Assembly (NCBI GenBank): GCA_010093605.1
Contig: MU004181.1
Location: 3,720,001 to 3,784,000 of the forward strand
DNA length: 64,000 nucleotides
DNA from: Lophium mytilinum
Taxonomy: Eukaryota
Reading direction: 5' to 3'
The position numbers and the translations under genes are program-made. This document shows, piece by piece, positions 6,798 through 61,696 of the stretch. Position 1 is the stretch's first letter, and each line of letters starts with the position of its first letter. The notes under the pieces were generated by a model. It worked only from the letters and a program-made list of their open reading frames with translations, did not search any database and had not been told where the DNA came from.

Positions 6798-9108
6798 TTT
6801 GAATGGTTTTGAAAGCTAATCCCTTGATCGCTGTGGAGTAGCTAAATCAGCGATTGCGGAAGTATCGAACTGCTTGCGGTCTAGGCTTTGATTCAACAAC
6901 TGCGGTCTTTGCGTTATACTCAAAGCTTGACAGGTAAACGTCACGAAAATGCATCGCGGATGTCTCTACGATAAGATGCGATGACCATGCAAGCACGTTA
7001 TGACCGTCCGCTAATCAGATGCGGAAAGCCGTATTGCGTCAGTACAGGGATCGTATTCACGATCTCGCTTACCTTTCCGGAAGTGGATACTATCGGCAAC
7101 TTAGCGATGCCGGCAGAACACTCCGAGAACAGTGAAGGAGTACCGAGCGGCTTAAGAATACCTTTGCTGAAGCATAGTAGAGATATAAATCGGTAAGCTC
7201 TTGTGTTTTGACATTGGATCAAGCAACGTGCTGGGGTACGAATGGTAGTTGGGGAGTAGCAATGCTCTAGCGAACGCACTGTATTCAAATAAATCATCAT
7301 CTGTCGTCCTGAGCTCTTCCTTCAAAAAGTTAATTTCCTCTTTGTCTCTCATTAATGGCTCACGCATCTTGTATAGTCACCATGCCTTTCACTATCGGTC
7401 ACGATTTAGCCAAGGCAATCGCTAGAGGACTACGATCGTAAGAGGACGAGGTAGGCATCAAGCAGAATTTCAAGGCGATGCTTTTGAGGCCATCCTAACA
7501 TGCCAAGAGTTCACACAATACGTAAGGTCACGAGTGGCGGCTAAGTCATGTGACATAGAATGCTTTCTCTGATATAAAATGCCCGCCGATTCTTCTCGGA
7601 ACAGCAACAAAGGTTTAGTGGGGTTGCATCAAACCAACCTGTGCCTGGTATGATGAGAGCGAGTGACAGACTGCTTTCACATAAAATGCGAAATCGAGCA
7701 ATGGTGGTAGTCCTGCCGGAGAAGGTGGTGGCGGAGGTTTGCAACACAGCACAGCACGCAGTCCATGGTGTGGTCCGGGTGCATTTAACCCGCTTCTATG
7801 ATGACGCTCATCTCAATTCAGAACTGCCCAGCCCAAGATCTCTCACGAATCGATTATAGCTATACGTATCAAGCAGTAACACCCTTCATCATCTAAATCA
7901 AACGTTGAACAGCATCAGAAAACCCTTGGGAGCCCACCACATTCTTCGCGACGTTCCGACCGATTAAACCACCGCAAGACCCCACTTCCCCAGAGCTCCA
8001 TACGAGAGGGGTTCGTTCTTTTCTTGACCACACCCTCCATGGATTTCGATCTCTGTGATTTTTGCTCCTCCAAAGCCCCGTCCAACTCCATGAAGACTCT
8101 ACTCCTCACGACGGGAAAGATGTTTTATACCCCCTCCGCCAAGACCCGTTCCCGTCACGTGGAGGCGGTGAAGTCATGGGTTCAATGGGATGAGAAGCAC
8201 CTGTGACCATGCTGGTGAACACGGGTGAACTCACCGGAGTACTCGGAGCCGTGCTTAGTCATGACTAGGAATGGCTGGGTATATAATCTCTCGTCGAGCT
8301 AAGGTGTGAGGGCCAGAGGTGTGGTTCCAATTCATCCATCTTCGAAAGCCCACCAGCAAAATTGCCATGGTGGTGTGGTTGAAACCTCTCCCTGTACAAA
8401 TGCGATGGATCTGGAGTCAAATCGGCCGAGAGACATGTCGATGGAGGACTGGAGAGGAATCGGGGATCGAAATCGCTCTGAAAGAAGGCGCATGGAGGTT
8501 TGCGAGTGGCGCGGTGCTCCGTGCTGTGAAGGAGAAGCATGATAATGGTGGTCGTTGGCGGGAGGCGTTGGTGTGCATCTATGTCATGAGAGAGACTTTG
8601 CCTTCTCAAGTGTATTGGGACGATCTCCGTTACCACTTTCGGAAGAGTCTCATCATCGTTGAATATTTCGATGGCCCGGCTCCCCCAAACTCCATAATCC
8701 CAGTGCCGCACATTGTTGAAATCTCCAGTCCATCGCCGAAAGCCCAGGCGGCTGTTGAACCACCAGACCCCCATACGAGAGTAGGCCATTGGTTGTAGAA
8801 ACGGTGGCCATCTCCTCCCATGAAGAAATCAATGGTCTGGTAAACTAGACATTTTATAGGAGAGATTCACGAGTGATTATGTTATCAGGTGGAATGCACA
8901 TGACTATTACTTCTGGGACGACGTAGTCAGGAGCCCGGCGAATGGCTGAAGAAGAAGATCGATGCTTATAGCGAAATAGACCGGAGGCGGTAAAGACGAA
9001 ACAAAGGTCTATTAGCGATCTAGAACGCAAGACTCGACCGGGTATAAGAAGAAACACAATACACTCCCTTCCAAACAACTCCCCCCTACTCACACAAACA
9101 ACCTCCCC

Positions 9109-10104
9109 TCAACCCGCCACACACCCCCCCAACCCCTCCCCCCTCCCAACCCAATCCCACGCCTCCCAAACGCCCCCCAAATGCACCACCGCCCCAACCA
9201 CCACCAAGCAATGAAAAATCTGATGACTCCCCCCCAAAACATCGACCCACCTCCCCTTCCCCCCACCCCACCGCTCCCAAACCCACCTCTCCGGCCACCT
9301 CCCCGCGAAAAACCCCGCCCCAATCCCATACGCCACCCCCTCGCCCAACCACCACCGCATCCCGCTCTTCCCCCACATATCCGCCCAGCCATACAACCAC
9401 AACCCATGCGCAATCGGCGCAAACCCGCTCAGCGCCGTCGCCACAAACGCCGTCGTGCGGACGGAGCGGCAGCGGGGGCCTTGGAGGCGCGGGTGCAGCA
9501 CTAACACCGCCGTGAGGGAGGTTAGGATGGAGATCATGCTCCAGTAGAGGAGCTTGAGCGCGGGCTCGCAGTAGAAGCCGACGTGGATGCCCGAGATGAA
9601 GGAGGCGAGGATGAGGAGGAGGATGCCGGCGTAGTCGGCGAGGAGGGCGGCGGCGTTGATGGAGTGGGAGTGCGACATGCAGGTGTGGTACGTCGCGGAC
9701 AGGGAGAAGGTGGTGAGGGCGGCGAGGAGGTTGAGGGTGAAGATGGCGCGGTCGAGGGGTGTGGAGGTGGGGAGGTGGGCGCGGAGGAGGGATTGCGGGT
9801 AGGGGGTGAAGGAGAGGAGGAGGAGGATGGCGGGAAGGAGGTGGGTGTAGATGTTTAGGGTCTCGTTGTGGAAGTAGGAGAGGGAGTGCAGGCAGTGCGC
9901 GAAGGAGTTGGAGACGGGGCGGTAGGCGGTGCGGATGTATGGGTTGTCCTGGTACCAGGGTGGGAGGTCGTTGAAAGAGAGAAGCCGGACGGGGATGTCT
10001 GGGTCCAGAGGGTGTGCTTGAAGCTTTGGAGGCTCGTCTGAGGTCCTGGAGGCTAGTCGGAGGAGCGTAATTGGCCTCCGGAGGGTGACAGTAATGGAGG
10101 CCAT
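9109..10104 (-). CDS. PAQR / hemolysin-III (IZH-like) membrane receptor
   Basis: DNPYIRTAYR, HNETLNIYTH, SATYHT..SHS, DYAGI, WPERW and SHQIFH signature motifs. Confidence 0.92.
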   Translation of the reverse strand: MASITVTLRRPITLLRLASRTSDEPPKLQAHPLDPDIPVRLLSFNDLPPWYQDNPYIRTAYRPVSNSFAHCLHSLSYFHNETLNIYTHLLPAILLLLSFTPYPQSLLRAHLPTSTPLDRAIFTLNLLAALTTFSLSATYHTCMSHSHSINAAALLADYAGILLLILASFISGIHVGFYCEPALKLLYWSMISILTSLTAVLVLHPRLQGPRCRSVRTTAFVATALSGFAPIAHGLWLYGWADMWGKSGMRWWLGEGVAYGIGAGFFAGRWPERWVWERWGGGKGRWVDVLGGSHQIFHCLVVVGAVVHLGGVWEAWDWVGRGEGLGGCVAG

Positions 10105-15540: not shown

Positions 15541-18065
15541 GGTGCCGGGTGGAGGGGGCAGTCGAGATGCGGTGGTGACAAAGGTGACGAAGGCAAGGCC
15601 TTCAGGGAGTCGCAGTACCCGTCAGAGTACGATTACGTAGGACAGGCCAAACCAGCAGCGGTGTCGAGGAAGTTCAGCGATAGTAGGCAATCCGAGGATG
15701 CGGAGTAAATGTAGGGATCGGTAGGTGCAGGTAACGAGTGGTGGGTGGGTGGAGGTTGGTGTTGTTGCCGCGACGACGTCGACGAGGCCAGTAAAAACCG
15801 GGAAGCCAGGGAAGCCGGCGGGTGGTGTGGCAGGCTAGCGTTCGAGAACGATCGTGGTGCGATCCACGGGACTATCCAGTTCCCGAATGAATGCGCAGAA
15901 TTAAAGACTCGAGAGGCAACCGGGCGACGCTGAGGATGAATGAGTCTCTGGGGGAACGAGCGAGTGTTGGGGGATTGACCTTCGGCGCGGTGTTCCTGAG
16001 GGGAGAAGCGTCGCAGCGTGAAGGAGGAGAAAGGGGCCGCGACAAGACAAGTCACGGGCTGCTAATTCAGTACACGCGGCTAGCTGCTGGGCACCGAGCG
16101 TGGCGATCAAGCTGAGCGCCGGCAGAAAGACGTGCTGACAGCTGCGGGCAGTGCAAAATATGGGGGTTGAGCTCACGTCGCAGAGGCGCCTGCCCTTTGC
16201 GCTGCAGTTGTAGTATTCCTTGCAGTCTTTGTTCACGATGGGTGAAGGGCTCGCAAAACTCAAAGCTCCAGGAACCGTCGAAGCAGCTCCACAGCTCGTG
16301 GCCGCATGCAGGCCCAGCGGCAGCCAGGCCCGTTCGACAAAGACAGCGTCATGCTGCTCCGCCACACTCGCCAGGCACACGATCGCGCTGCATTCGGCCC
16401 CAGCTGCACACGAGCCTATCGTTGCATCCGCCCAAGGCACCTAATATCCCAACACGAACCACATCGCGACGCCGGAACACCACCCACCCAGCACCCACTT
16501 CACAGATACTGACCATGTGCCAAAGACCTCAAGCAGTGCTAAGCACTGTACACCAGCATAAAGCAGCCTCCTAGCCTATGACAATACGCGCGGCGACGAT
16601 GATGGTGTTTGGACTGGGCATCCGCGGCGAACCAAAGCTTCGCGAAGGGGGCCTCTCCGACAGGCCTCAAACGCGGTGGGTCGCAGAGGATTGCGGGAGA
16701 TGGACGGGCCGAGCGTGTACACGTCTCAGGATATGTGGATTAACCTTCATCATTGAGGAAGCCGAGGAAGGGAGCGGCAGTCGCAGGATGCACGACGCGC
16801 AGACTCTGGTGGGCCAACTGTAATTTGCATTCTCCGATCGCGATTACTCGCGATTACCTCATCGTCAACCTTGGACTACCTAGCTACTTCGTACCGTGGC
16901 GCCTCCGCCTTTTCGGGCCTTGGCGCCCGAGTTTGCCGACGTCCAGCCCGTTTGAACTGGCCTGAAGAGCTATCAGCCTTGTCAAACCCAACGTTTCACA
17001 ATTTTTGATACCCTGCCAGAGGACCTCAAGCGGTGCCAGGCAAGCATACAGAACAGCAAGAGCATCTACTCGAGAAAAGGTGTCATCGACTCAGCTAACA
17101 CTTTGTCCGAGGACGCCTATCATCCAACACTGTAACGTGTGCTTCAGCCTCCCATCACATTCACCAACCATGTCAGCGGTGAAGAGGCCCTTAGCGTCTG
17201 ATGCTGCCTACGCCGCGACGAGGAAGACATCAAAGGGTGCAGTCCCCCGGCCCGCCAATGCCTTGTAAGGCTCTTTACATGATGGCTGCTTATCATTTCG
17301 GACCCTCACTAAACCTTGTAGATCGGTGAGGTGCAGGTCTTTAACGCAGAGGATAATGGTTTTCAAGATTGTTCAGAAACCAGTGCAGACCATTTCTATA
17401 TAGAAACCGCGTGGATACGACCAAAACATGTATAGCTGCGAAGAAACGGTCCTTATCGGTGCCTCGGCCGCCCCTAATGACCAACACATTCATACTCTCA
17501 TTCCCCTCGCTACGAAGGCATTTAGACAAATATTGAGACTGGGACGAAGGAAATGCACCATTCCGCCTGAACTCAGACCTGCTTACCCCAAATGCGCCTA
17601 AATCGCGTTTGAGTTACCGTCGATAGCAAGGCTCGTCGCAGACTTGCAAAAATCTTCATACTATTTCTGCCGTTGCTTTGCTAGCATCAGTATCCTTACG
17701 CAGGTACTAGCGGTCCGCGTTGTGTCTTCCCCGCGGCCTCCTCCGCGCTTCGCCTAGATTATGGTGTAGGGCTGCAGTCGGTACCCAGTAGGATACCTGG
17801 AGAGCCTCCTCAGCCTTTCCTTAGAACTGCGAGCCATAGGCTTCACGCCCTGGTTATGAGCTGCCGCTTTTAGCATTGGCGGCGTATACCGTGCACTAGA
17901 GGCCGCAGCCTAAGTCTTAGTCCAGGTCGAATTGTGTCCTAGGTTAGGGCTACTTGGTAGCCTTCTCATCAGCAGAGCCAGACGGCCGTGCATGTCTTCA
18001 TTGGGTGGGTGTGGCCAAACAGGATGGGCCGTATTTGGTATTTGTATGTTGTTACCGCTGGCAAC

Positions 18066-20208
18066 TCATGCAAGCTTCGATGAATAGGGGGTTTCTCTGA
18101 AGAAGTTTCCGGTCACATGTCTCGCAACAGAAAGAATGAGCTTGAGCTCTTTCGCAACCTCGTCCGCTTTCGGACGGCTGTCAGGGTTGATTGTGAGGCA
18201 CCTCTCCACGATTTTAAGCAGACTGAGTATGGGGCCTTTAGCTGCTTGGTGTGTGCAATGCTGCTTCAGTTGTTCGATACGTGCTAACACTTTGGGTCGA
18301 AGCTGTGCTTTGCCATTTTCGCCGTAGTGATAGTACCCCTGGGTGGTAACCTGCGGGCGGTGGAAATCGATTGGTCCAGATCTGTCGTCTGTCAGCTATG
18401 GCGATTTCTCATGCAATTTGGGGGTCACAAACCTGGTGTCTGCAAATTTGCTTAGACCTTGGGGGCCGTCTTTCAGCCAGACTATGAATTCGAGGACAAT
18501 GCACCCAAAAGACCATATATCATAAGCGCGTGCTTGTTTCCGTTGAAGACTCTTAGCGCCTGCTTCTGGCGCTGCGTAGACTTCGCTTCCCCGGATAGTC
18601 TCCGTGGCACTGCCTTGGAGTTGGGTGCGAAATTTGCCTAGACCAAAGTCCGACATTACAATCCGGCCAAAATCTATTTCAAACCCCTTCAGCGGCTCGT
18701 CCAAAGTTTCATCGATTTGCACAAAGAGTAGCAGGTTTTCCGGCTTGAGGTCGTGGTGGTATCCAAACCAGACTGGCTTGCCCAGCAAGTCGTTGGGTTG
18801 GAGCTTGTTGCTGCTAGTGTTCTGGTGTACGTGGTTCAAACCTTCGGCAAGCCCTTGAAGCTGTTCGAGCGTCCAGATAACGTGACTGCTTTGATTCTTC
18901 TCTCGAGGGTCCACCAGTTGAAAGTGCTTCTGGAGGTCCGATCGCGCGAAAGGGAAAATGAGGTAGTATTTGTCGCCGTGCTGGAAAGACGTCAACAGAC
19001 GAATGAGGTGTTTTTGATGGCCGAATTCTTCCAGTTGGGTCAACATCGTCCATTCTTTCTCGTAGTCTTCCTTACTTCCTTCCCGTTTAGCCTCTTTCAT
19101 GGCTAAGTAAGGGTTCGGGTCCTGTAAAGTGATTGTTAGCAAATGGATTTTGAGATGATTTGATAGTTGACGAGGGCAAGGTATGTTATATGCATCAAAG
19201 TTTGCTTACATTGGCTAGCTTGTATACCTTCTGATGAGATGCCTTTACCTTCACCATATAGACCTTTCCGAATCCTCCAGTTCCCACTAGCTTTATATCG
19301 TCTAGTGGTAGGACATATTTTGAGCTATACGCCGGATGTCGGTTCCCATGTCCGCCTTGGGGTGGAGGAGGAAATTCCATAGCTAGTGTTTGCCACTGAA
19401 ACATACAAATTCGTTGGTGTTGTTCGTCGGTACAGAACCAAGGACGATCTTTAGCGCTGTCGGAGATTGGCATCATGTTATCATACATCCTATGCTTCAG
19501 GAATTGATTGAAGAGATGCCCGAGGTGGCCGTCGAATCCGGCGAGAATCAGCGTTGCCAAAAGTCGAGGTGCTTTGCGACAAATGACAGAAATTTCTGAT
19601 CTCGTTTTCGATCTCAGTTCTACCAATTCTTGGAAGAGAGAGGTTACGGCGGTCTCGGAGACTATCTCAAGAAGCCTATCGATGGGAACGAACCAAACAT
19701 CATTCTCGTTGTCCAAGTTCTTGTTCTGTATTCGTTCTCTGTGGATAGCATCGAATAGTTGCTGGCGGCTAGTGGTGGTGATTTGTCCCTCATTGCGTAG
19801 AAAACTTGTCTTGTACGTGATTTTGTCATAATCATCGCTGCAAGAGTCTTCCACTGTCTGTTCAAAATGTGGACGCGATGCGATCGGGATTTCTTCACAG
19901 TCCCCGGCCACTTCCAGAATGATAAAGTGGCCTTTGCATTCGCCTTCAATACCATGTTTCTTGAGCACTTTGCCTATGAATTCCTGAACTTCGCAGTACA
20001 GTTCCGAGGCACGTAGGTCTAGCTTGTGATGCTCGAATAGGACTTCATGCTCCGTCGACCTGGGCTTGACCTCGACGCAGATGTGGAGCACAGTTGGTTT
20101 GGATTTTTGGAGACGTCCAGCTAGGAAGTGTCCATTTGAGTGCGTATGATCGTCAAAATTGCTGAAGCGAATCTCAGGGCCTCCCATTGTCTGGGTGTCG
20201 AGCTGCAT
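18066..20208 (-). CDS. Ser/Thr protein kinase with long N-terminal extension, three exons
   Basis: GTGGFGKVYMV, AMK, HHDLKPENLL, SDFGL, YAAPE, DIWSFGCI and CLTINPDSRP; GT-AG introns near 19123-19208 and 18383-18433 join the ORFs in frame. Confidence 0.9.
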
Positions 20209-21116
20209 AGTAACGTCGAGAGTAGCTTCCCTGGGCCTTCGTGGTACAAGTTAACAATCTGGCAATGCTTCTGTAGTCGTGATAGGCTTCGCTGATCCAC
20301 ACAGGCTTCTGTGAAATGTCTATTAGCAGTGCTCGTAAGCCTGTCAAAAGAACATACTGGAAAGCCAAGATCCTCTTCCCAATGACGACCTTGTGTACTA
20401 AATAATGCAGAGCCTAGCTAGGCCGCATTAGCAATTCGATGTATTGGGGTGAAGGTTTGAGGATAGATCCGAGCGGCCGACTATTCATGGAATGACTTGG
20501 CGACGAGAAAAGCTTAGAGGAGCGCTAAGTGTGTCGCACCGATAAGGCCTCGCTATATAAACCTAGCCTGGTGTTGGGCCACGCTGGAGGCTGAGTTTGC
20601 CAGAGCCTCTGCAACGCGAATTGTTCATCACTCCAATGAATGCGCCTCATGGAGCCCAACGTGGATTCCGATGATAGGGCACGCAGAGGCGACCGGTGAA
20701 AGGCAGCTTCCAACAATTCGCTGCTCAGGTCCTTCATGCAAGCCAAAATAAGGCTGCGAGGCTGCGCATCGTTCGCCTTTTTCTGCCTTGTCACGTCCGA
20801 CCAATCAGAAAACATGGCGCCTGCAAAGTTGAGTCACATAATCGAAGAAAGGGTGTCCGATTGATCAGTTGTAGAGATGGGCTTTTTGACATCCTAGCGC
20901 ACCAGGATGTGAATATATCAATCTTGGAAGGTTGAGTAGGGGTGCGTACCTGCTCTGAAATAGTTGACTGGATCGAAATTAGACTACCTCTTTCGCATAG
21001 TAAGGTACGTCTCAAACATTTCAGGGAGTAGTCACTTGCCGAGTGAGTGCATGTACTAATAGTTATGAAATGTCAAGTGGAATGTGCTGATGTTGGCGTG
21101 TGTCTGTGTCTGATGA

Positions 21117-23303
21117 TTAGAGTGGTGGTCGTCGAAGGTAGGGAGTGCCCGTAAAGTGCATTTCGGATAGCCCCGGGGATGTGGGAGATCGCGAGTCCGG
21201 CATTTCGTCAGAAGGGAAGTCGAAACTGATAGGTTGATGCATTTCAGCGTGCTCGGGATCGTGATTTGGAGTTTTGGTCTCGCGAAGCTTCAGGAAACGA
21301 GCTCTTTCGAGCCGATGGATGGCCATGTTCTTGAATCTGGTAGAGGATGTCATGTACCACACAAGGAGCGTGACAAGCGTCAACGGGATAGTTATCGCAA
21401 AATAGATCCACCATTTCTTTGAGATAGTGAGACCTTGCGGGTCGATGGAGACAAATTGCGTCGAGAAAAATCCTGCTACTACAGTCGCCGGGAGGAAGAA
21501 GACCGTAATGATTGTAATTATCTTGATAGCCTGCAATTGCAAATTAGCGAGCTTCTTTGTGAACACTGCTTACAAGTAGCATACACCAGAGTCCTTTGTC
21601 GCTTTTTCAGTCAAATGTCGCATTGCCAGATTATCTTGTCGAGCCTCTTCCGCTAGGAGGCGAAGAGAATACGCGTTTTCATAGTCCAGGAGACCAGATA
21701 GCAAATAAGAGGCACCATGCACACGTTTGTCCAGAACTCCCGCCTTTGACAAATAGAGTTTCGACTCATCAAGAGCTTCGCTGTAACTGTTGATAAGAAA
21801 AGCTGACTCTTCTTCGTCGCTTTGTCTCGAGACACTGGAAAGGTGCTTCGTGAGGGATGATATAGTACTTATAGTTGATTCAAGCATGACGTGTAGGTTC
21901 AAAATATGATCCTCCAAAGTTTTCAGTCTTTGCCTATCGCGGAAGTCGATTTTGAAATCAGGTAAACCATCAACCTTATCCTTGGCGACGTCTGCAAGTG
22001 TAATTCTATCAGACTGATCTTGTACCCGTTGGGTCATGTCGTTGAGATACCATCGCCACTCGACTAGGGAAGCTTCGATCATCGTAAGATGGAGTGCAAA
22101 CGCTTGGGTCGGGTCAGATGCTTCTTGTCTGCGAGTGTATGCTATTATATGGCGCTCTAGGCTGGAACTTTTGGGTATGCCTATGAATATCCATATGTTT
22201 TGACGTCGTGATGGATCATATCTTTGATACACAGCGTATTGGCGGACCGACCATCTCTCTTTGCCATTGACGTTACCATTATCAGCAACGTAGCGTAGTC
22301 CATATGCGCATTCATATTGCTTAGTTCTCATGGCTTTGCCTCCTTTGGAGTAACGAAATCGACAGGTTGGAGGTGCGAAGTCGTACTCTTTGTTCTTTTG
22401 CCCGAAAGACATGACAAATTCTTTGAAGCGAGGGTTAATCGAGAATTTATGTAGCAAGCCGTCGAACAGCGTTTGGGAAGGCGAGAGACGACTGTTGGAA
22501 TTTCTTGTGAATCGAATAAAACTGAGTATGTTAGGCATAAGTCGAGTTAGGACATCGCAAATCCTACTGACAATATCGGCTGCGCATGGTCCTGATAGCA
22601 ATCTAGATCATCAACGTTCTGGATCCTCTGTATCTCATCTCTGAGGTATGACGGCCTGTCGTTTTTTTCATTCCCAGGAATGACCCAGGAGTCGTCCAAG
22701 GCGGCTACACAAACGTAAGCAAGGGACGTGTCGGTATTAGAGGTGGTGGATTGTTTCCCTGAACGAAATAAAGGATATAGGAATAGAGCAGCTTTGGAGA
22801 TACATATGAACGAAAGACCAAAATTAGAACGTATAGTCGTAAGGCAGAATTCGATGGATGAATGAATCCTGACTATTGCTTTGAATGGGCACCAACGGCC
22901 AAGACTGCTACAACCGAATCAAATTGCGATAGCACCTGCATACTTCTATAGTTCTAAGGGGAGCTATAGAGGGCGAGGTGTGCGGATTTGGGAGATTGAG
23001 GCAGGTGTAACCAAATCAGTCCGGGAAACGGTGATACTAGTCATTTCTCGAACAGTATAGAACATAGTACACGAAAGGAGTTACTTACGACGAGAGTACA
23101 CGTCAATCCAAGTTTTCAGGCTATCCAGTTGGAAGATCTTCTTAGAGCGCTCCTCGAAGCTCTCCAAGGCTGGAGATTCCGAGTCGTTATGAAGATACCC
23201 TGATGCCATTTCTATCGGCTTGTAGGATGTTGACTGTCGAACACCTGGGACCGTCTCGGTTTTCATCTCGGCAAGGCACACTGGTCATCTCACCGGTGCT
23301 CAT
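21117..23303 (-). CDS. Fungal CorA-like membrane protein with two C-terminal TM helices, about five exons
   Basis: WSVRQYAVYQRYD motif, coiled-coil stalk, then KDSG|AIKIITIITVFFLPATVVAGFFST...WWIYFAITIPLTLVTL; upstream exons splice in frame from ATG 23303 (start uncertain). Confidence 0.85.
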
Positions 23304-24197
23304 GGCGGAAGGAGAAGTGATTGTAAGAAGGAGGGTTGTCCGGGCAATGTGTTGGCCGCTGCAGATGGGGCGCACTGGGCCTCTCGGCATGGAAATGTGC
23401 ATGAGGCTTGAGGCTGAGCCGAACCGAGATTTTAATTGGCACGAAGCAGACAAATCGCAAACGCCAATACCTCCGTCAAGGCGAAACAGTGGCAATGCAT
23501 CACAGACGAGGCACTGGTCAGGGCCTGTTGCGTTGATGTCGTTGAAATAAAGCTGAAGCGAAGGGGTTAGAGGACAACGGTGCCGCCGCCGCCTTCACGG
23601 ATACTAATGGACCCATCTGTCCCTGGGATAATGCCAAGATCTCTCGTACACAGTACTTGTATGCAGTCAGTAAGCCTTATGTTTCCTAGGACTCGGCTTA
23701 TGCGTTGACCCAAGGCTTTCACAGGCCGCAGGTCAAAAGGCTAATAGAAGGGCCACATGGCATGCTACTAGAGCCTTTTCTCCCTTCTCCATGCTACCTA
23801 ATCATCCGATACACTGCCTATCGGCATCCTGACAGCCTCACAGCCCAAACACTAGAGACCCCGTACTGTCGACATTTGCTCTCATAGGAGGCACTCCGCC
23901 ACGCACCGACCCGCCTTTCGTGCGCTGGGTAGCCTGCCGTGTGCGCATTTGCCTGCATTAGCCGGAATTGCTCTTGTGGTACCAGAAAAGGATTTTCCCG
24001 GAGTACACCGCTAATCCTCGCAGGAATTTACCTCTGGAAAAGCCCACGCTTCGTTCTCCGAAGAAATTGCACTCATCGCTACCCGAAATCTCCTCAACTC
24101 ACCATCCTATACCCAAGGGCTCCTAGATTAGTATCACCTTTGCGAGGAAAACCATCTTCAACAGTTCTGACCTCTCAAGCCCATTTTCTATTTCATC

Positions 24198-24517
24198 ATG
24201 ACACATTACCGGTCACCATCCACAAAGCTCGAATGGTCTGTTCAGGTGCTGAATGATGCATACATTGATAGCAAAAGACTGTGGGAAATGATGGACGAAC
24301 TGTTCCCCCGTGGAGATTACAAGGCTCGGGTGAGCAACAAGTCTGAGAGTTCATGGTCGTATTCTGATTCATCATTCAGCATAAAGACAACCGCTGGATG
24401 ATCCAAGCCCCAAGAAAGCTCACAGACGCAAGTGCACTCTCTGAGCAGCTTATCGGTCGTCTAACTCTTCTTAAGGACGAGATCGAATCCATCTACCAAG
24501 AGTCCTCCTCGGTTTAA
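24198..24517 (+). CDS. 73-aa microprotein, three exons (24198-24329, 24380-24427, 24476-24517)
   Basis: Intron 1 is GTGAGC..CTGAT..CAG (50 nt) and intron 2 is GCAAGT..CTAAC..TAAG (48 nt). Spliced product: MTHYRSPSTKLEWSVQVLNDAYIDSKRLWEMMDELFPRGDYKARHKDNRWMIQAPRKLTDDEIESIYQESSSV*. Confidence 0.8.
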
Positions 24518-55598: not shown

Positions 55599-57965
55599 TC
55601 ATGCTCCCCTCCTCACATTTGTGCTCATCAATGTGATCTTCTTCGCTTTCTTCTTCTTACCGCCGCTCGCTGGCGGTTTCTTGGAAGGTTCTCCCTCCCC
55701 AACAAGCGACATGGCTTGCGCTTGGGCTATCATGTCCTCCTCCTGCAAGAGATCCTTCTCCCACCCTTGGAGCCATCCGTCGTCTCGCATGTCGCTCTCT
55801 GACGGCACGGCCACCAACGTCGGCGAAGAAGATGCCACTATCGTGGTGCCCCAAACTGTGCGCGCAGCAGATGGACTAGTTGACGGCGACGCCAGAGAAG
55901 CAAACCCTTGACCTCGTCGTGCTGGCCAAGGTGGCGAAGTCGACGCACTCTCAGCGCCGACAGACCCAGAACTATCAGCCCCATCCGAGGAAACGAGTGG
56001 TTGGAAGTCATCCGCCGTGAACCTTTCCGAGATGCTGGCTCTCTTCCGCCGTGCAGGGGCATATCGCGCATCCTCTTCCTTCTCTGCCTTGATGCGTGCC
56101 TTCTCCTCTCTTGCTTCCTTATCTTGATTCTTCTTTCGACGTTTGTCGATTTCTGCCTTGAACTGCTCAAGGATTTCAGAGGGTACCGTATCGGTCCAGT
56201 CGCATTCTAGGAAGCCCACTTCACATCCGTATGGTAGATGTGCAAGGTACTTAGTCTTCCTTCGAAGTTCGTCATCGACGATATGGCCAGTAGATACTCT
56301 TTCAACGCGCGGCAAAATCGTTGACGGGAAAGTCGAGAAATTGCCGAATGCCGCTTTCAAAATTCGAATGTCAAGCGGAGAGAGATAGTAATGCAATAAC
56401 GCTTGATAAAAATAATACTCGGACGGAGTATTATGATGCTCGTGATGTTGACGGTTTCGAAACTCGGCGAGAGTTCCAGGAGCACCAGGGCCTGCTTTTT
56501 GGGGGTTCGAGGTAGTGGAAAGCTTCCTCGAGAATTGAGCGTTCGATTCATTGACAATCGTCGCAGGACCTGCTCGATGGTCCGATTCCTCAGATACGGT
56601 AGATTCATTTGCTGTGGCCTGGGATATGCTCTGGCCAGACTTAATCGCGTTTTGGATCAGGTACATTTCCGGTGCCTGATCGCCCGCTTCGTGGTAAACT
56701 ATTGGAGCGCGCTTTGGTTTCTGCTCCGCTGGTTTGCTCGGTAAAGCCGGTGGGTTTCCGATGCCTTTGACTTTCTCTTTGGCTTCGTGAATGGACCGCA
56801 CAGCCTTTCGGACCCACTCTACATTGTCCTCCCCAAACATCAGCTCGTCTTCCTTCTCTTGCCTTTCAAGCTCAGCAACCTCTTCATCTAATTGAGAAAG
56901 CAAGTAGTCCTCGCTCCCCTTCATAACGCGAGCATAGTCCATGACTTCTGCGGCGTAGTACCAAGGGATGTCTTGGTCCTTATCCAACAGCTCAGCTCCA
57001 TCTCTCGGCAAGGCAAGGGTGCTTCCTGTTGTTCTCATGATCAACCGAAGCACAATGTCCTCACCCTCGTGGGGTGCACCTCCTTCTTGCCCAGTGTACC
57101 ACCGCACAGGGCGCGTCTCTGATATGTATATGCTGTCCCAGCAGAGTGGGCATTTCTTGGACCGAGCCCTCTTCTCAGGCGGCTTGGCCTCCTCGTCCGC
57201 GTGCATGTACCGGATGAGGCAAGGCAAGCAGAATATGTGGCCGCACTTGGCCATGCGGGGAGCGACGGGAGTGCCCAGGCAGATGGGGCAAGATGCGAGT
57301 TGAGACTGAGCGGACACCAAGATCTGCAAGACATTGTTCCAGTCCAGATGGGTATCGGCGTCTACGTTCTGGGCCCGGTAATCCCCTCTGGGATCGACGA
57401 TGAAGCGGTAGTTGGAGTGAACGAACCTGTGGCGGTCAGATGGTGGCTCATACACTGTGGTCATGATGCTTACCTCGCTTTGTCGACAGCATGATAGCCC
57501 GACCCCATTCCCCAGGTAGGGTGTCTCCGGTTGTTCCGCGACGGGGCATGACTATGGTAATTCGGAGGACGAGGGGGAAGGCTGAAGTTCATCAAGTGGG
57601 TAATCGATGTTTGCCCCTTGCGGTTGTTGAAAGGACGCATGGCCGCCTGGCATTGTCAGATTGAGAAACGGAGGAGCCGGATAGACTGCAGCAAGACTGG
57701 CACCTACGGATTCCGCGAGAGCATCCTCATCCGTAGCCCTGAAGCGCTTGGAGCCCTTGTGCTGCTTCCGGACGAGCTGAGCGTTCCGTGGGGAGGGCGA
57801 CGCCCGCGACGTATTCCCCGCTCCAAAACTGCCAGATCCCCCACTGCGTCGCTGGCCGAAGGTATCGCCGGCTGCTACAGAGCCCGCCTGGTTCTGCGCT
57901 GGCGAGAGCTGGCCCGCGGTGGTTGCTGCTTTGGAGGACGAAGCAATGGCTGGCGGAACAGACAT
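55599..57965 (-). CDS. MAG2: RING E3 ligase of the RNF10/Mag2 family, three exons
   Basis: ITHLMNF, FVHSNYRFIV, CPICL..P.APRMAKCGHIFC.PC..CPLC, YYFYQ and YLAHLP.GCEVGFLE.D, with a KKKKAKKITLMS C-terminus. Confidence 0.9.
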
Positions 57966-58224
57966 GGCGGGACCGATCGAGTGCCGATGACGAGGCGGGG
58001 GCGCTGGACGCCAGACGCTCGACGCTCAACACTCACACGCGAAATCTAACAAGGGAGGAGAGGGAGGAGAGAAGAAAGAACGAGGAGAGGAAAAGAAGAG
58101 AGGGGGGGAGAGCGAATAGTGAATGCACAGCAGCACACAGCAATGTCCCAGGCCCTCGTGGGTGGACTGAGGCGAGAGAGTGACTCCGCGAGGGCTGCAG
58201 AGGAAGCATGGGGGCAAATCGAGA

Positions 58225-58233
58225 TCACGTGAC
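58225..58233. promoter_or_regulatory. TCACGTGAC E-box (Cbf1-type bHLH site) in the MAG2/UBP3 divergent promoter
   Basis: GATCACGTGACATGTG read directly from the sequence. Confidence 0.45.
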
Positions 58234-58841
58234 ATGTGTTTTCAACTGCTCCCGGCGGCGATGCTTGCGGGCTGTGAAGGTGATTGTTTGCTGCCAAACT
58301 CACACACGGCCGCCGGGAGCCGGTCTGGGAATCATACGCAGTAGGTATCCAACAACGGGCACACGAGCGCGTCTGCAGATGATGCTTGGTGGCCCCATAG
58401 CGGAGAAGATACGCTACCTAAATGGGCTACGTACTGCAGACTCGAGTGACCTTGCTGCACCGTTCGAAAGGCTTCCAGCATCCTAACGTGGAGAGGCTCC
58501 TTCACCACCACCAGCATTTCACTGCGAGCCCTGCCTCCAACACCACTTTCTACTTCTTCAGAGGCCTAAAGATGCCCTGGCTCCAGACCACGGCCCTCCG
58601 CCGCTCCGAATAGTGTGACGCCTCAGTCTCGCTGCCTCCCCCCAGCAATAATTTCGGCCTCATCAACACCATCTCCTGCCCCGTTGTCAGGCCATCACTC
58701 GCTCCCCATCTTCGCCATCTACTGCCGTCGCTCCCAGCCAGGACTTCGCGCTGTCCACGTCGCCGGCTCTTCCACGCCTCACAAGTCGGTCGCTAGGCCT
58801 CTCCACGGCCAGCGCTGACTGTGACGGCAGCAGCATTCGCC

Positions 58842-61696
58842 ATGATGCCCCATGTACCGCCTGCTGCTCCTATCCATCAGGGTAGGCGGCATGGCGAGTA
58901 CTACCCGCCGCAGACGCATTCGCCCGTCCATAACCCCTACGCCAACTTCCACCCGCAGTACCATGGGCCACCGCACGCGTCGCCGTACCAGCAGCAGTGG
59001 TATCCCTATCACCCGCCCCAGCATCAGCATCAATACTCTATGCCCCCGCGCCAGTACCAGCCGCAGTCCCATGGCTCGCCTGTAGTCGTGTCGTCGCACC
59101 CGCACATGCAACCGGTCACTCCCGTCAGTCGCCAGCTTGGACAAACGCCGCCCATTGTCCACTCGAGGACGCCCCCTGCTCCTCGGAACTACACTCCCCA
59201 GCAAGCTCCTTCGACTCCCTCGGTGGCATCGCAGGCGCATGTTTCTCCTTCTACGACAACAACCACAGTGACGACTCCGGAGCCGCCCCCATCAGCTTCG
59301 TCCCGACAGTCTTTCTCCGCGCCTCCGCCTCCTCAGCCAACACACCGAACTCCTTTCGCGCCTCCTCTACCGTGGCTATCTATCCCTGAGTTGCCGTTCC
59401 CCCCCAAAGCCTCCAACAAGCGGCGGAGACGGCGTGGTCTGGTAGCTTCGACCGAAGAGGGTCTTGCCTTTCCAGCACGCGAGCAGATAGACACACCAGA
59501 GGAGGAAATGCCAGAGCCGGGGCATACGCACGAACAGCCTCTGGTAGAGGAAGCTCCCGCTGAGGAAGCTCCAATTGAGGAACAAGCTGCCTCCCAAACC
59601 TCCACCGCGGCTGCGGTATCTGATCTAGAGACGCCAGCAACTTCACAAGCTCCATCAGAAGCTGACTCTACACACCCCACAACACCGTCTTCGGTACTAC
59701 CCCCTGCTCCTGCACCGCGACCTGCCGCTCCATCCTCGCATACAAGGACTGCCACAAAAACGGCAGTGCCTCTCATACCCATCAAACCAGCAGTGCCAAA
59801 GGTGGCGCCCAGCGTAACCTCAACTACCCAAAAGTCGGTGACACAGGAGAAGGCGGATCAGCCGGTCAGCGAAGCCCAGGAATCCGAGACAACCGCAGGC
59901 TCAGAGAGCACACCCACAGCCTCGCCACCAGCACCTAAGCCAGCCCCGAAGTCATGGGCGGAGTTGCTGCGAAGCAAGCCTGTCCCTGCCACAGCGCAGT
60001 CCGTAGCTGTTCAGAACGGTGTCGTGACGCCCAATGGGTCAGGAGTCGCCAAGAGCAACTCGCTCGGTGACGTCCTCACATCTTTTTCTGTGGGCGCCGA
60101 GAAGAAATTAGCGTTCCTTGAGCCTCGCGGCCTTGTCAATACTGGGAATATGTGCTATATGAATTCGGTAAGCTTCTCAGCTTTCTCATCTACGAGATAT
60201 ACTAATTTGTCTGCAGATTTTGCAAGTTCTTGTTTTTTGCGTTCCTTTCTATGACTTCTTGGACCAAGTTCACAAGCGTGCGGTTCATAGCTTCAAAAGT
60301 GAGACTCCTTTGGTCGACGCCATGTAAGTTCAAGTTCGGAACTGATTCCTCGTCCATCACTGACATCTAGGAAGCATTCTTTTCATGCGTGATTTCAGCG
60401 TCATCGATTCCGCGGCCTCTGCCGAGAAGCTTCGACTTCGCCTCAAGGATAACGAGCTCGAGCAGTACGGTGATCCACTGACTCCGGAGTACGTCTACGA
60501 CGTAATTAGGAGGTTGCCGCGCTTCGATCATATGAAGGTATGAGATTCTGCCTTGCTGTAGCGTTGCAGCTCGTCACTAACGAATTTAGCGAGGACACCA
60601 ACAGGATGCCGAAGAGTTCCTTGGCTTTTTGCTCGCTGGACTACATGACGAGTGTGCCCATGTCATGAAGAGTGCCAGACCTACCAATGGTGCGGAGAGC
60701 GCCGAAATCACATCCCCAACGAGCGACAAATCTGCTTCGGTAGACGGCGGCTGGCTGGAAGTTGGTCCAAAGCAGAAGTCCGCGGTCACACAATCATCTG
60801 GCACTATCGAGGTCGAGTCGCCAATCACCAAGATATTTGGCGGCAAACTCCGCTCTGAATACAAGCGCCACGGACAGAAGACCACGGTAACTTTGGAGCC
60901 ATACCAACCTCTCCAGCTTGATATCGGCGCCTCAAACGTTAACAATATCACCGATGCCTTGCGTGGCCTCACGCACTTGGAAACTCTCCAGGGAGACTCT
61001 AATGCGCCACAAGGTACGCGATCGGCAACGAAACAGCTTTTCATTGAGACACTACCCCCTGTTCTCATTCTACATCTCAAGCGGTTCCTTTACGACGCTA
61101 CGGGCGGTACCCAAAAGATCTGGAAGAAGGTCGGCTACCCACTTGAGCTGGAGATTCCCAAGGAGGTCTTCCCACCTCACAAACGCAACGCCTTCGCGGC
61201 TCGCGGTGGCTTGCCCCGCTACCGTCTCACCGCTGTTGTTTACCACCACGGCAAAGACGCCTCAGGGGGCCACTACACCGTCGACGTCCGCCGCCAGGAA
61301 GGCCGCGAGTGGATTCGCATGGACGACACCGTCATCCGACGCATCCGTGCCGACGACGTCGCCGAGGGCGGCGCAGAGGAAGACCCGAAGATCCTCGCCG
61401 AAGCCCTCGAGCAGCACAAGCGCGACTCCAGCCGGTCGCGCAACTTTTACGAACAGGTGGGTCTGGACGAGGCAGATAAGGCCGACGACCAGGGCGGATG
61501 GAGCCAGGTCAACGGCGCGGAGAAGGCAGAGGGCGGGAGCGCGGGCAAGACGAAGAAGTGGAGTGGTGTAGTCAACGGCACGGCGACCCCGGGCAGTGCG
61601 GGCAAGCGAACGCCCACGCCTGCGTCGGCGCGCAAGGAGGGTGTGCGCGAGGGCAAGGTCGCGTATATCTTGTTTTATTCCCGGATTGAGGCATGA
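58842..61696 (+). CDS. UBP3: Ubiquitin-specific protease of the Ubp3/USP10 family, four exons
   Basis: Pro-rich N-terminus, PKSWAELL, PRGLVNTGNMCYMNS, HQQDAEEFL, SPITKIFGG, LHLKRF, HHG..ASGGHYT and AYILFY. Confidence 0.93.

What the first reader, a model, noticed from the sequence alone, without database searches (positions are those of the whole stretch)
18066..24517. Candidate fungal defence / nonself-recognition module: kinase + CorA-like pore + 73-aa microprotein
Seen: three intact genes packed in an accessory interval between the housekeeping Flc and TBC genes. The CorA-like gene and the kinase are co-oriented, the microprotein is divergent from the CorA-like gene across ~900 bp, and the flanks contain only gene relics. 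Established: CorA-fold proteins form oligomeric membrane pores, and CorA-family proteins serve as membrane effectors in some bacterial type III CRISPR systems. Fungal allorecognition loci are often tightly linked, fast-evolving gene sets. Inference: a sensor kinase gates a CorA-like membrane effector by phosphorylation, with the microprotein as inhibitor or adaptor, forming a toxin-antitoxin-like cell-death unit.
Basis: partly seen in the sequence, partly recalled or inferred. Interest (0 to 1): 0.85.

Follow-up and report, generated by a model that had tools for sequence, protein, structure and literature searches.

The report
CorA-like protein, small partner, kinase
Three real, expressed neighbouring genes of a wood-dwelling fungus encode a kinase, a magnesium-channel-like membrane protein that lacks the magnesium filter, and a 73-residue protein; the last two also sit side by side in a distant relative, so they may work together, but nothing shows a defence or cell-death role.

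Summary
By database names the window is Lophium mytilinum. It carries three intact genes between an FLC/TRP gene and a TBC gene:
- a 667-aa protein kinase on the minus strand;
- a 553-aa CorA-fold protein on the minus strand;
- a 73-aa protein on the plus strand, 931 bp away and divergent.

RNA contigs confirm every intron, including the GC-AG intron that gives 73 aa rather than the deposited 89 aa.

The CorA-like protein has the whole CorA fold (Foldseek E 1.5e-10). FFSTQF replaces the GMN filter. The kinase keeps its catalytic motifs but is non-RD (HHD).

GenBank accession order, validated on the window itself, shows two things:
- all three genes are neighbours in Mytilinidion resinicola;
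- the CorA-like gene and the small gene are consecutive in Lineolata rhizophorae, which belongs to another order.

The kinase's N-terminal region was found only in the two Mytilinidiaceae.

Best reading: a conserved CorA-like plus small-protein pair, with the kinase as a lineage-restricted neighbour. Nothing supports defence or allorecognition. The orthologues are 79-86% identical and no HET or NLR domain matched these proteins. Complex prediction could not be run. Linkage across Pezizomycotina is untested.

The parts
18066..20208 (-). Protein kinase gene, 667 aa. Exons 20208-19210, 19121-18433, 18381-18066; introns of 88 and 51 nt. Residues 1-295 are a lineage-restricted N-terminal region. 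The kinase domain is about 305-646 and carries GTGGFGKV (309), AMKE (340), HHDLKPEN (455, non-RD), DFG (491) and APE (517).
   Evidence: gene model; identical to P0027; Pkinase 76.4 bits; motifs; 51-nt intron skipped in RNA contigs of X3 and X4.
20209..21116 (-). Transcribed spacer between the CorA-like stop and the kinase ATG. It holds two spliced minus-strand introns (20309-20357, 49 nt; 20894-20949, 56 nt) and 12 upstream ATGs in the spliced leader. It also holds a 96-aa ORF (20815-20525) that is not in the protein collection.
   Evidence: joints in X3 and X4; one 5837-nt X3 contig runs from 22704 across this spacer and the kinase; leader, uATGs, ORF; ORF not on record.
21117..23266 (-). 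CorA-fold membrane protein gene, 553 aa by the RNA joints. Exons 23266-23089, 22704-22572, 22521-21585, 21530-21117. It has an N-terminal alpha/beta domain, long stalk helices and two C-terminal TM helices (about 416-442 and 456-479). FFSTQF at 438 replaces GMN.
   Evidence: model; PF01544 26.3 bits, cut-off 27; precomputed PF26616 and PF01544; fold; TM segments, motif.
23267..24197 (.). 931-bp divergent spacer between the CorA-like and small-protein start codons. It is wholly covered by one RNA contig, so the two 5' ends overlap or one leader is long.
   Evidence: X3 record 11, 1614 nt, lies on 23089-24328 without a gap and goes on through both introns of the small gene.
24198..24517 (+). Small-protein gene, 73 aa, three exons (24198-24329, 24380-24427, 24476-24517). 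Predicted soluble beta-alpha-beta-beta-alpha domain with no TM segment. It belongs to a small ascomycete family.
   Evidence: splicing, 73 aa; relatives; model, mean pLDDT 74.9; no hydrophobic segment.

Best explanation
The core of the locus is a conserved head-to-head gene pair. One gene encodes a GMN-less CorA-fold membrane protein of the fungal 'CorA-like transporter domain' family (PF26616). The other encodes a 73-residue soluble alpha/beta protein.

Inferred mechanism:
- The CorA-like protein assembles like CorA into an oligomeric channel or transporter.
- Its filter (FFSTQF in place of YGMNF) gives it a cargo other than hydrated Mg2+.
- The small protein is a cytosolic accessory or regulatory subunit, made from the shared divergent promoter region.

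The kinase looks active and is of the non-RD type. It lies directly downstream of the CorA-like gene, and RNA contig cover runs across both without a break. It is a lineage-restricted neighbour in Mytilinidiaceae. It may regulate the pair, but it is not shown to belong to it.

Shown here: the genes, their splicing and presence in RNA contigs, the CorA fold, the loss of GMN, and adjacency in three genomes.

Inferred only: oligomer formation, transport, binding of the small protein, and any role of the kinase.
For: Genes and expression
- All introns of the three genes are skipped in contigs of two runs.

Fold and filter
- The AlphaFold model has mean pLDDT 68.9.
- Its best PDB matches are Thermotoga maritima CorA chains. 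E is 1.5e-10, probability 1.00, about 440 aligned columns, and TM by target 0.5-0.6.
- There are two C-terminal hydrophobic segments.
- GMN is absent in 16 of 16 family members examined. Of these, 13 show an FFS[TS]x[FL] motif after 'LP'. In 2 my pattern found nothing, and 1 has a divergent RTSLSC.

Linkage
- In Lophium the GenBank accessions KAF2503365, -66 and -67 follow the window order kinase, CorA-like, small gene. This validates accession order as gene order.
- In M. resinicola the small gene is KAF2805157, the CorA-like gene KAF2805158 and the kinase KAF2805160. All lie on one 999,578-bp contig.
- In Lineolata rhizophorae (order Lineolatales) the CorA-like gene is KAF2454562 and the small gene KAF2454563. 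Both lie on one 589,049-bp contig.
- Gene order is generally not kept between distant Dothideomycetes (mesosynteny; PMC3516569, passages read).

The small protein is a real family
- The search gave 8 representatives with E <= 0.001 out of 1.84 billion. Three of them show the 73-aa splice form.
- The model is confident for its size (pLDDT 74.9).
Against: - Adjacency is known for only three genomes, two of them close relatives. It is inferred from accession order, not from DNA. The orientation in Lineolata is unknown.
Simple inherited microsynteny is therefore not excluded.
- For the more distant relatives of the small protein (Zopfia, Annulohypoxylon, Hypoxylon) the neighbours are unknown. The same holds for the distant CorA-like relatives (Leotiomycetes, lichen fungi).
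- No physical interaction was tested, because the complex job never ran.
- A profile comparison found no homology between the small protein and the CorA-like protein (probability 0.5%).
- An RNA contig across two genes does not show a single transcript (note).
Confidence: 0.4

Rival explanations
1. The three genes are unrelated neighbours. Each works on its own, and the shared position in Mytilinidion and Lineolata is inherited microsynteny without functional coupling.
For: - The three proteins share no family: kinase, CorA fold and an unassigned small domain.
- Identities between Lophium and Mytilinidion are ordinary, at 78.7-85.8%.
- The kinase N-terminal region was found only in these two genera.
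- Only 3 genomes are informative.
Against: - The CorA-like gene and the small gene are consecutive in a member of another order, at about 49-55% protein identity.
- In this class gene order is usually scrambled at such distances (PMC3516569).
- The divergent spacer is fully covered by one RNA contig.
Confidence: 0.35
2. The kinase senses a signal and phosphorylates the CorA-like protein, which opens as a membrane-permeabilising effector. The 73-aa protein acts as inhibitor or adaptor. Together they form a toxin-antitoxin-like cell-death, defence or allorecognition unit.
For: - The three genes are tightly packed and RNA contig cover runs across the CorA-like gene and the kinase without a break.
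- CorA-family proteins are membrane effectors of some type III CRISPR systems (PMC10600005, search listing and start of abstract seen).
- A polymorphic gene with a CorA-like domain is one of two candidates linked to vegetative incompatibility in Morchella importuna (PMC8940278, passages read).
- The kinase is non-RD (HHD). From recall, that class is often tied to innate-immune signalling.
Against: - No sign of fast evolution: 85.8%, 78.7% and 82.2% identity between genera. One CorA-like piece of run X4 differs at 10 of 649 bases, against 28 of 526 for a TBC piece.
- The locus is present in both Mytilinidiaceae genomes in the same order.
- No HET, NLR or HeLo domain matched any of the three products.
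- The PADLOC CorA model matches only the TM end, at 13.2 bits.
- The strong kinase hit there (mad6, 106 bits) covers just the generic kinase domain.
- The kinase was not detected beside the pair outside the family.
- The Morchella gene is only a mapping candidate and was not shown to be of this subfamily.
Confidence: 0.07
3. The coupling is transcriptional only. The small gene's transcript, or a long leader, overlaps the CorA-like first exon in antisense and modulates its expression. The 73-aa product has a separate job.
For: One X3 RNA contig (1614 nt) runs without a gap from 23089, the end of CorA-like exon 1, through the 931-bp spacer into the small gene.
Against: - Contigs carry no strand and can merge overlapping transcripts (note).
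- The small protein is conserved as a protein, with a conserved splice form.
Confidence: 0.1

Closest known systems
CorA / MIT superfamily Mg2+ channels (Thermotoga maritima CorA; Pfam PF01544)
   Same: The whole-chain fold matches: an N-terminal alpha/beta domain, long stalk helices and two C-terminal TM helices (Foldseek E 1.5e-10). The conserved 'LP' and aromatic residues at the end of TM1 are kept.
   Different: The GMN signature is replaced by FFSTQF or FFSSQL, with 0 of 16 members carrying GMN. Sequence identity to CorA is 10-14%. The PF01544 score of 26.3 bits is just under the 27-bit cut-off. There is an extra N-terminal extension of about 100 residues and a disordered C-terminal tail. 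Transport has not been tested.
Fungal 'CorA-like transporter domain' family (Pfam PF26616; the UniRef name of P0001, P0002, P0008 and P0016)
   Same: The window's protein and 24 of the 26 hits carry the precomputed PF26616 annotation. Members come from Dothideomycetes, Leotiomycetes and lichen-forming fungi.
   Different: I found no functional study of the family. The searches 'CorA-like' + Pezizomycotina (0 papers) and 'CorA-like transporter' (4 papers; listing seen, none on this family by title) gave nothing. I found no report of the conserved small-gene neighbour.
CorA effector of type III CRISPR systems (activated by SAM-AMP)
   Same: It is a CorA-family membrane protein used as an effector next to its activating genes (PMC10600005, listing and start of abstract).
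   Different: That system is bacterial and driven by a nucleotide signal. Here the PADLOC CorA model gives only 13.2 bits over the TM end. No Cas10 or NrN-type partner is present. The similarity is one of superfamily only.
Morchella importuna mimpvic32, a candidate gene for vegetative incompatibility with a CorA-like domain
   Same: It is a fungal protein with a PF01544-type CorA-like domain. It is allelic and linked to barrage formation by bulk segregant analysis (PMC8940278, passages read).
   Different: It has 765-773 aa and 8 introns, and it is a candidate only. Strains with the same alleles still showed incompatibility in that paper. Its sequence was not compared here. The Lophium gene shows no evidence of polymorphism.
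Eukaryotic Ser/Thr protein kinases (Pfam PF00069), non-RD class
   Same: All catalytic motifs are present. Pkinase scores 76.4 bits.
   Different: There is no close solved relative (best PDB E 3.4e-06). It has HHD instead of HRD. The 295-residue N-terminal region has no family. The Atlas gave no usable hit by features, and its structure matches have TM (by query) <= 0.45.

Membership tests
CorA / MIT superfamily (PF01544) | Two C-terminal transmembrane helices after a long stalk helix and an N-terminal alpha/beta domain (CorA fold) | tested here: met
   Model. Foldseek top hits are T. maritima CorA chains, with E 1.5e-10 and about 440 aligned columns. Hydrophobic segments at 416-442 and 456-479.
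CorA / MIT superfamily (PF01544) | GMN (or G-x-N) signature at the end of TM1 | tested here: not met
   FFSTQF stands at 438-443. GMN is absent in 16 of 16 family members examined (alignment).
CorA / MIT superfamily (PF01544) | Sequence score above Pfam's gathering cut-off | tested here: inconclusive
   26.3 bits against a cut-off of 27 for P0001. The protein collection's precomputed list does carry PF01544.24 for P0001 and P0002.
CorA / MIT superfamily (PF01544) | Homopentameric assembly and divalent-cation transport | not testable with these tools
   A pentamer of 553 residues exceeds the size limit of the complex tool.
Fungal CorA-like transporter domain family (PF26616) | Match to PF26616 | tested here: met
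   Precomputed Pfam column: P0001 and 24 of 26 hits carry PF26616.1. The local Pfam scans gave no PF26616 row, so this rests on the precomputed annotation.
Eukaryotic protein kinase (PF00069) | Pkinase profile above cut-off, with Gly loop, catalytic Lys, HxD, DFG and APE | tested here: met
   76.4 bits against 31.7. Motifs at 309, 340-343, 455, 491 and 517. HHD makes it non-RD.
Fungal het / allorecognition locus | Marked allelic polymorphism or trans-species polymorphism | not testable with these tools
   Only one genome per species was reachable. Between genera the proteins are 78.7-85.8% identical. Run X4 is a relative of unknown status.
Fungal het / allorecognition locus | HET, NLR (NACHT/NB-ARC), HeLo or other known death-domain partner in the locus | tested here: not met
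   Pfam scans of all exons and proteins and of the 10 longest flank ORFs list only Pkinase, PK_Tyr_Ser-Thr and weak CorA.
Toxin-antitoxin-like death module | Toxicity of one product and neutralisation by the neighbour | not testable with these tools
   Needs expression experiments. The binding prediction never ran: the queue was full or the job was not sent on, and there was no usable answer.
Type III CRISPR CorA effector | Match to the defence-type CorA profile, and a CRISPR/NrN context | tested here: not met
   PADLOC CorA gives 13.2 bits (E 0.0076) over residues 410-478 only. P0008 gives no hit. This is a eukaryotic locus without such partners.

The most novel reading that the evidence does not exclude
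The GMN-less CorA-fold protein is a regulated membrane-permeabilising executioner. The 73-aa protein, made from the same divergent promoter, holds it closed, and the adjacent non-RD kinase releases it. This would be a fungal counterpart of kinase-gated pore formers (RIPK3-MLKL) and of CorA effectors in bacterial CRISPR defence. PF26616 would then be a new class of fungal cell-death effectors.
Probability: 0.07. Interest if true: 0.8.

Novelty: new variant of a known kind. Interest (0 to 1): 0.35.

Why it matters
PF26616-type CorA-like proteins occur in several classes of filamentous ascomycetes, and my literature searches found no function for them. A small protein that stays next to such a gene across orders gives a concrete, testable handle: a candidate partner for a channel-like protein that has lost the Mg2+ filter.

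The locus also corrects two deposited gene models. If the pairing proves general, it would define a two-component membrane system in fungi. If it does not, the locus is an ordinary stretch of three neighbours.

Tried and rejected
- Whole genome of the window: none is held.
- Metagenome contexts. A scan with the CorA-like alignment matched 24 stretches, and none was confirmed. An alignment of the small family had no usable conserved stretch. A degenerate DNA pattern for its conserved exon-2 peptide gave 0 matches. No DNA of any other genome could therefore be read, and linkage rests on accession order.
- Earlier findings of this scan: nothing by place, relatives, sequence or words.
- Sequencing runs: no listed holder is on record as RNA. 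X3 and X4 are taken as RNA only because their contigs skip introns. Contig depths were not used to rank genes.
- Complex prediction of the M. resinicola CorA-like protein with its 73-aa neighbour never ran. The job was not sent on. There was no usable answer.
- Fold of the small protein: no Foldseek match with E <= 0.001 (best 0.065). The best VIA-align Z is 4.9 among 48,161 chains. It is a common small alpha/beta arrangement and no family is assigned.
- Atlas, small protein: three Ascomycota clusters of about 75 aa score 0.81-0.84, which is a lead only.
- Atlas, kinase N-terminus: no usable hit by features, and structural TM (by query) <= 0.45 with weak PB1-like rows.
- Homology of the small protein to the CorA-like protein: rejected (hhalign probability 0.5%).
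- Paralogues or relics of the three genes elsewhere in the window: none by tblastn.
- Rfam families in 15.5-28.2 kb: 0.
- Repeats: only two 20-nt chance-like inverted pairs.
- Pfam on 10 flank ORFs: nothing near a cut-off.
- PADLOC mad6, MkoA and PD-T4-6 hits of the kinase: set aside as generic kinase-domain matches.
- Literature: 'CorA' occurrences in two fungal NLR and cell-death papers were the word 'coral'.
Full report
**What is there.**
Database names of identical proteins place the window in Lophium mytilinum (Dothideomycetes, Mytilinidiales). Between an FLC/TRP-type gene and a RabGAP-TBC gene lie three intact genes. The FLC gene scores TRP_N 103 bits and TRP 227 bits, and the TBC gene 54.6 bits.

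*Kinase.* It lies on the minus strand with exons 20208-19210, 19121-18433 and 18381-18066. My hand-built model equals the deposited 667-aa protein P0027.

*CorA-like gene.* It lies on the minus strand with exons 23266-23089, 22704-22572, 22521-21585 and 21530-21117. This gives 553 aa. It differs from the deposited P0001 only at the first junction (SRP against VCVA).

*Small gene.* It lies on the plus strand with exons 24198-24329, 24380-24427 and 24476-24517. The deposited 89-aa model P0029 keeps the second intron, a 48-nt GC-AG intron.

**RNA support.**
One run (X3, near-identical DNA) and a second run (X4, a relative 80-99% alike) consist of contigs that skip every one of these introns. I therefore take them as RNA, although neither is on record as RNA.
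- One 5837-nt X3 contig runs from 22704 through CorA-like exons 2-4, the 908-bp spacer and the whole kinase. By its record coordinates it goes on about 1.5 kb further, to near 16.5 kb.
- Inside the spacer it skips two more minus-strand introns (20309-20357 and 20894-20949).
- Another 1614-nt contig runs unbroken from 23089 (the end of CorA-like exon 1) through the 931-bp divergent spacer into the small gene.
- Contigs have no strand and can merge transcripts. This shows continuous transcription, not shared mRNAs.
- The stretch 24.9-27.7 kb has almost no cover.

**The proteins.**

*CorA-like.* The model (mean pLDDT 68.9) has an alpha/beta N-domain, stalk helices at 298-336 and 341-412, and two TM helices. 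Its best PDB matches are all T. maritima CorA: E 1.5e-10, probability 1.00, about 440 columns and 10-14% identity.
- Pfam PF01544 scores 26.3 bits, just under the cut-off of 27.
- The precomputed annotation gives PF26616 ('CorA-like transporter domain') for 24 of 26 hits.
- The GMN filter is absent in 16 of 16 members examined. Its place is taken by FFSTQF, FFSSQL and similar motifs.

*Kinase.* It has GTGGFGKV, the AMKE lysine, HHDLKPEN (non-RD), DFG and APE.
- It has no close solved relative (best E 3.4e-06).
- Its first 295 residues match no family.

*Small protein.* It has no Pfam family and no hydrophobic segment.
- It folds as beta-alpha-beta-beta-alpha (mean pLDDT 74.9).
- It has no significant PDB neighbour.
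- It is not an orphan. An exhaustive HMMER search gave 8 representatives with E <= 0.001. They come from M. resinicola (80% identity over the matched stretches; 82.2% for the spliced 73-aa form), Lineolata rhizophorae, Zopfia rhizophila, Annulohypoxylon nitens, Hypoxylon crocopeplum and unnamed environmental contigs.

**Linkage.**
No DNA of another fungus could be fetched, so I used GenBank accession order.
- In Lophium the three proteins are KAF2503365, -66 and -67, in the same order as in the window. This validates the proxy.
- In M. resinicola the small gene, the CorA-like gene and the kinase are KAF2805157, -58 and -60, on one contig. One unknown model lies between the CorA-like gene and the kinase.
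- In Lineolata rhizophorae, a different order, the CorA-like gene and the small gene are KAF2454562 and -63, on one contig.

So the pair is adjacent in 3 of the 3 named genomes in which my searches found both. For Dothideomycetes, gene order is reported as generally not conserved between distant species (PMC3516569, passages read). That makes the Lineolata case mildly informative. I could not measure a background rate, and the orientation there is unknown.

The kinase N-terminal region was found only in Lophium and Mytilinidion: 2 hits among 1275 candidates of 584-2000 aa. That search is word-indexed and can miss divergent relatives.

**Defence or allorecognition?**
Nothing found here points that way.
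- Lophium and Mytilinidion orthologues are 85.8% (CorA-like), 78.7% (kinase) and 82.2% (small protein) identical.
- No HET, NLR or HeLo domain matched any of the three proteins or the flank ORFs.
- There are no repeats and no compositional oddity in the interval.
- The defence-type CorA profile of PADLOC matches only the TM end, at 13.2 bits. The kinase's strong PADLOC hits cover just the generic kinase domain.

Leads in favour are indirect.
- CorA effectors exist in type III CRISPR systems (PMC10600005, listing and start of abstract).
- A polymorphic gene with a CorA-like domain is a mapping candidate for vegetative incompatibility in Morchella (PMC8940278, passages).

**Verdict.**
The most likely reading (0.4) is a conserved pair of a GMN-less CorA-fold membrane protein and a small soluble partner, with a lineage-restricted kinase next door. 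Unrelated neighbours (0.35) remain a serious rival. The kinase-gated death module is possible but unsupported (0.07).

Binding was not tested, because the complex tool never accepted the job. Supplements of the cited papers were not consulted.

Noticed in passing
window 24428-24475: The deposited model of the small protein (89 aa) retains a 48-nt GC-AG intron. RNA contigs of two runs splice it out, and the orthologues lack it. The true product has 73 aa.
   Followed up: yes
window 22704-23096: The deposited CorA-like model uses a different exon 1/2 junction (VCVA) from the RNA contigs (SRP). The RNA-supported form agrees with the Mytilinidion orthologue.
   Followed up: yes
window 20209-21116: The spacer between the CorA-like stop and the kinase ATG is transcribed. 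It contains two spliced introns, 12 upstream ATGs and a 96-aa ORF (20815-20525) that is not in the protein collection. M. resinicola has one extra annotated model between its two genes. Run X4 shows two 1-nt insertions (at 20746 and 20748) inside the ORF. It could be a long kinase leader, a read-through or a separate small or non-coding transcript.
   Followed up: partly
window ~16500-18065: The RNA contig that covers the kinase goes on for about 1.5 kb past its stop codon. There is no ORF with a Pfam match and no Rfam family there. It could be a long 3' UTR or a separate non-coding transcript. A piece of X4 there is only about 88% alike, less than the coding pieces.
   Followed up: partly
window 16948-17054: A short dispersed element. 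Pieces of 38-71 nt from seven other contigs of the genome run X1 match here, mostly at under 90% likeness, with loose ends on both sides.
   Followed up: no
window 15541-16314: The RNA contig of the FLC gene extends about 770 nt upstream of its ATG (15540). This is either an unusually long leader or an unannotated divergent transcript.
   Followed up: no
window 18844-18846 (kinase residue 456): The kinase has HHD instead of HRD in the catalytic loop (non-RD). This is conserved in the Mytilinidion orthologue.
   Followed up: partly
window 9001-10000 and 57001-60000: Local G+C peaks (0.63 and about 0.60) stand against a window background near 0.50-0.53.
   Followed up: no
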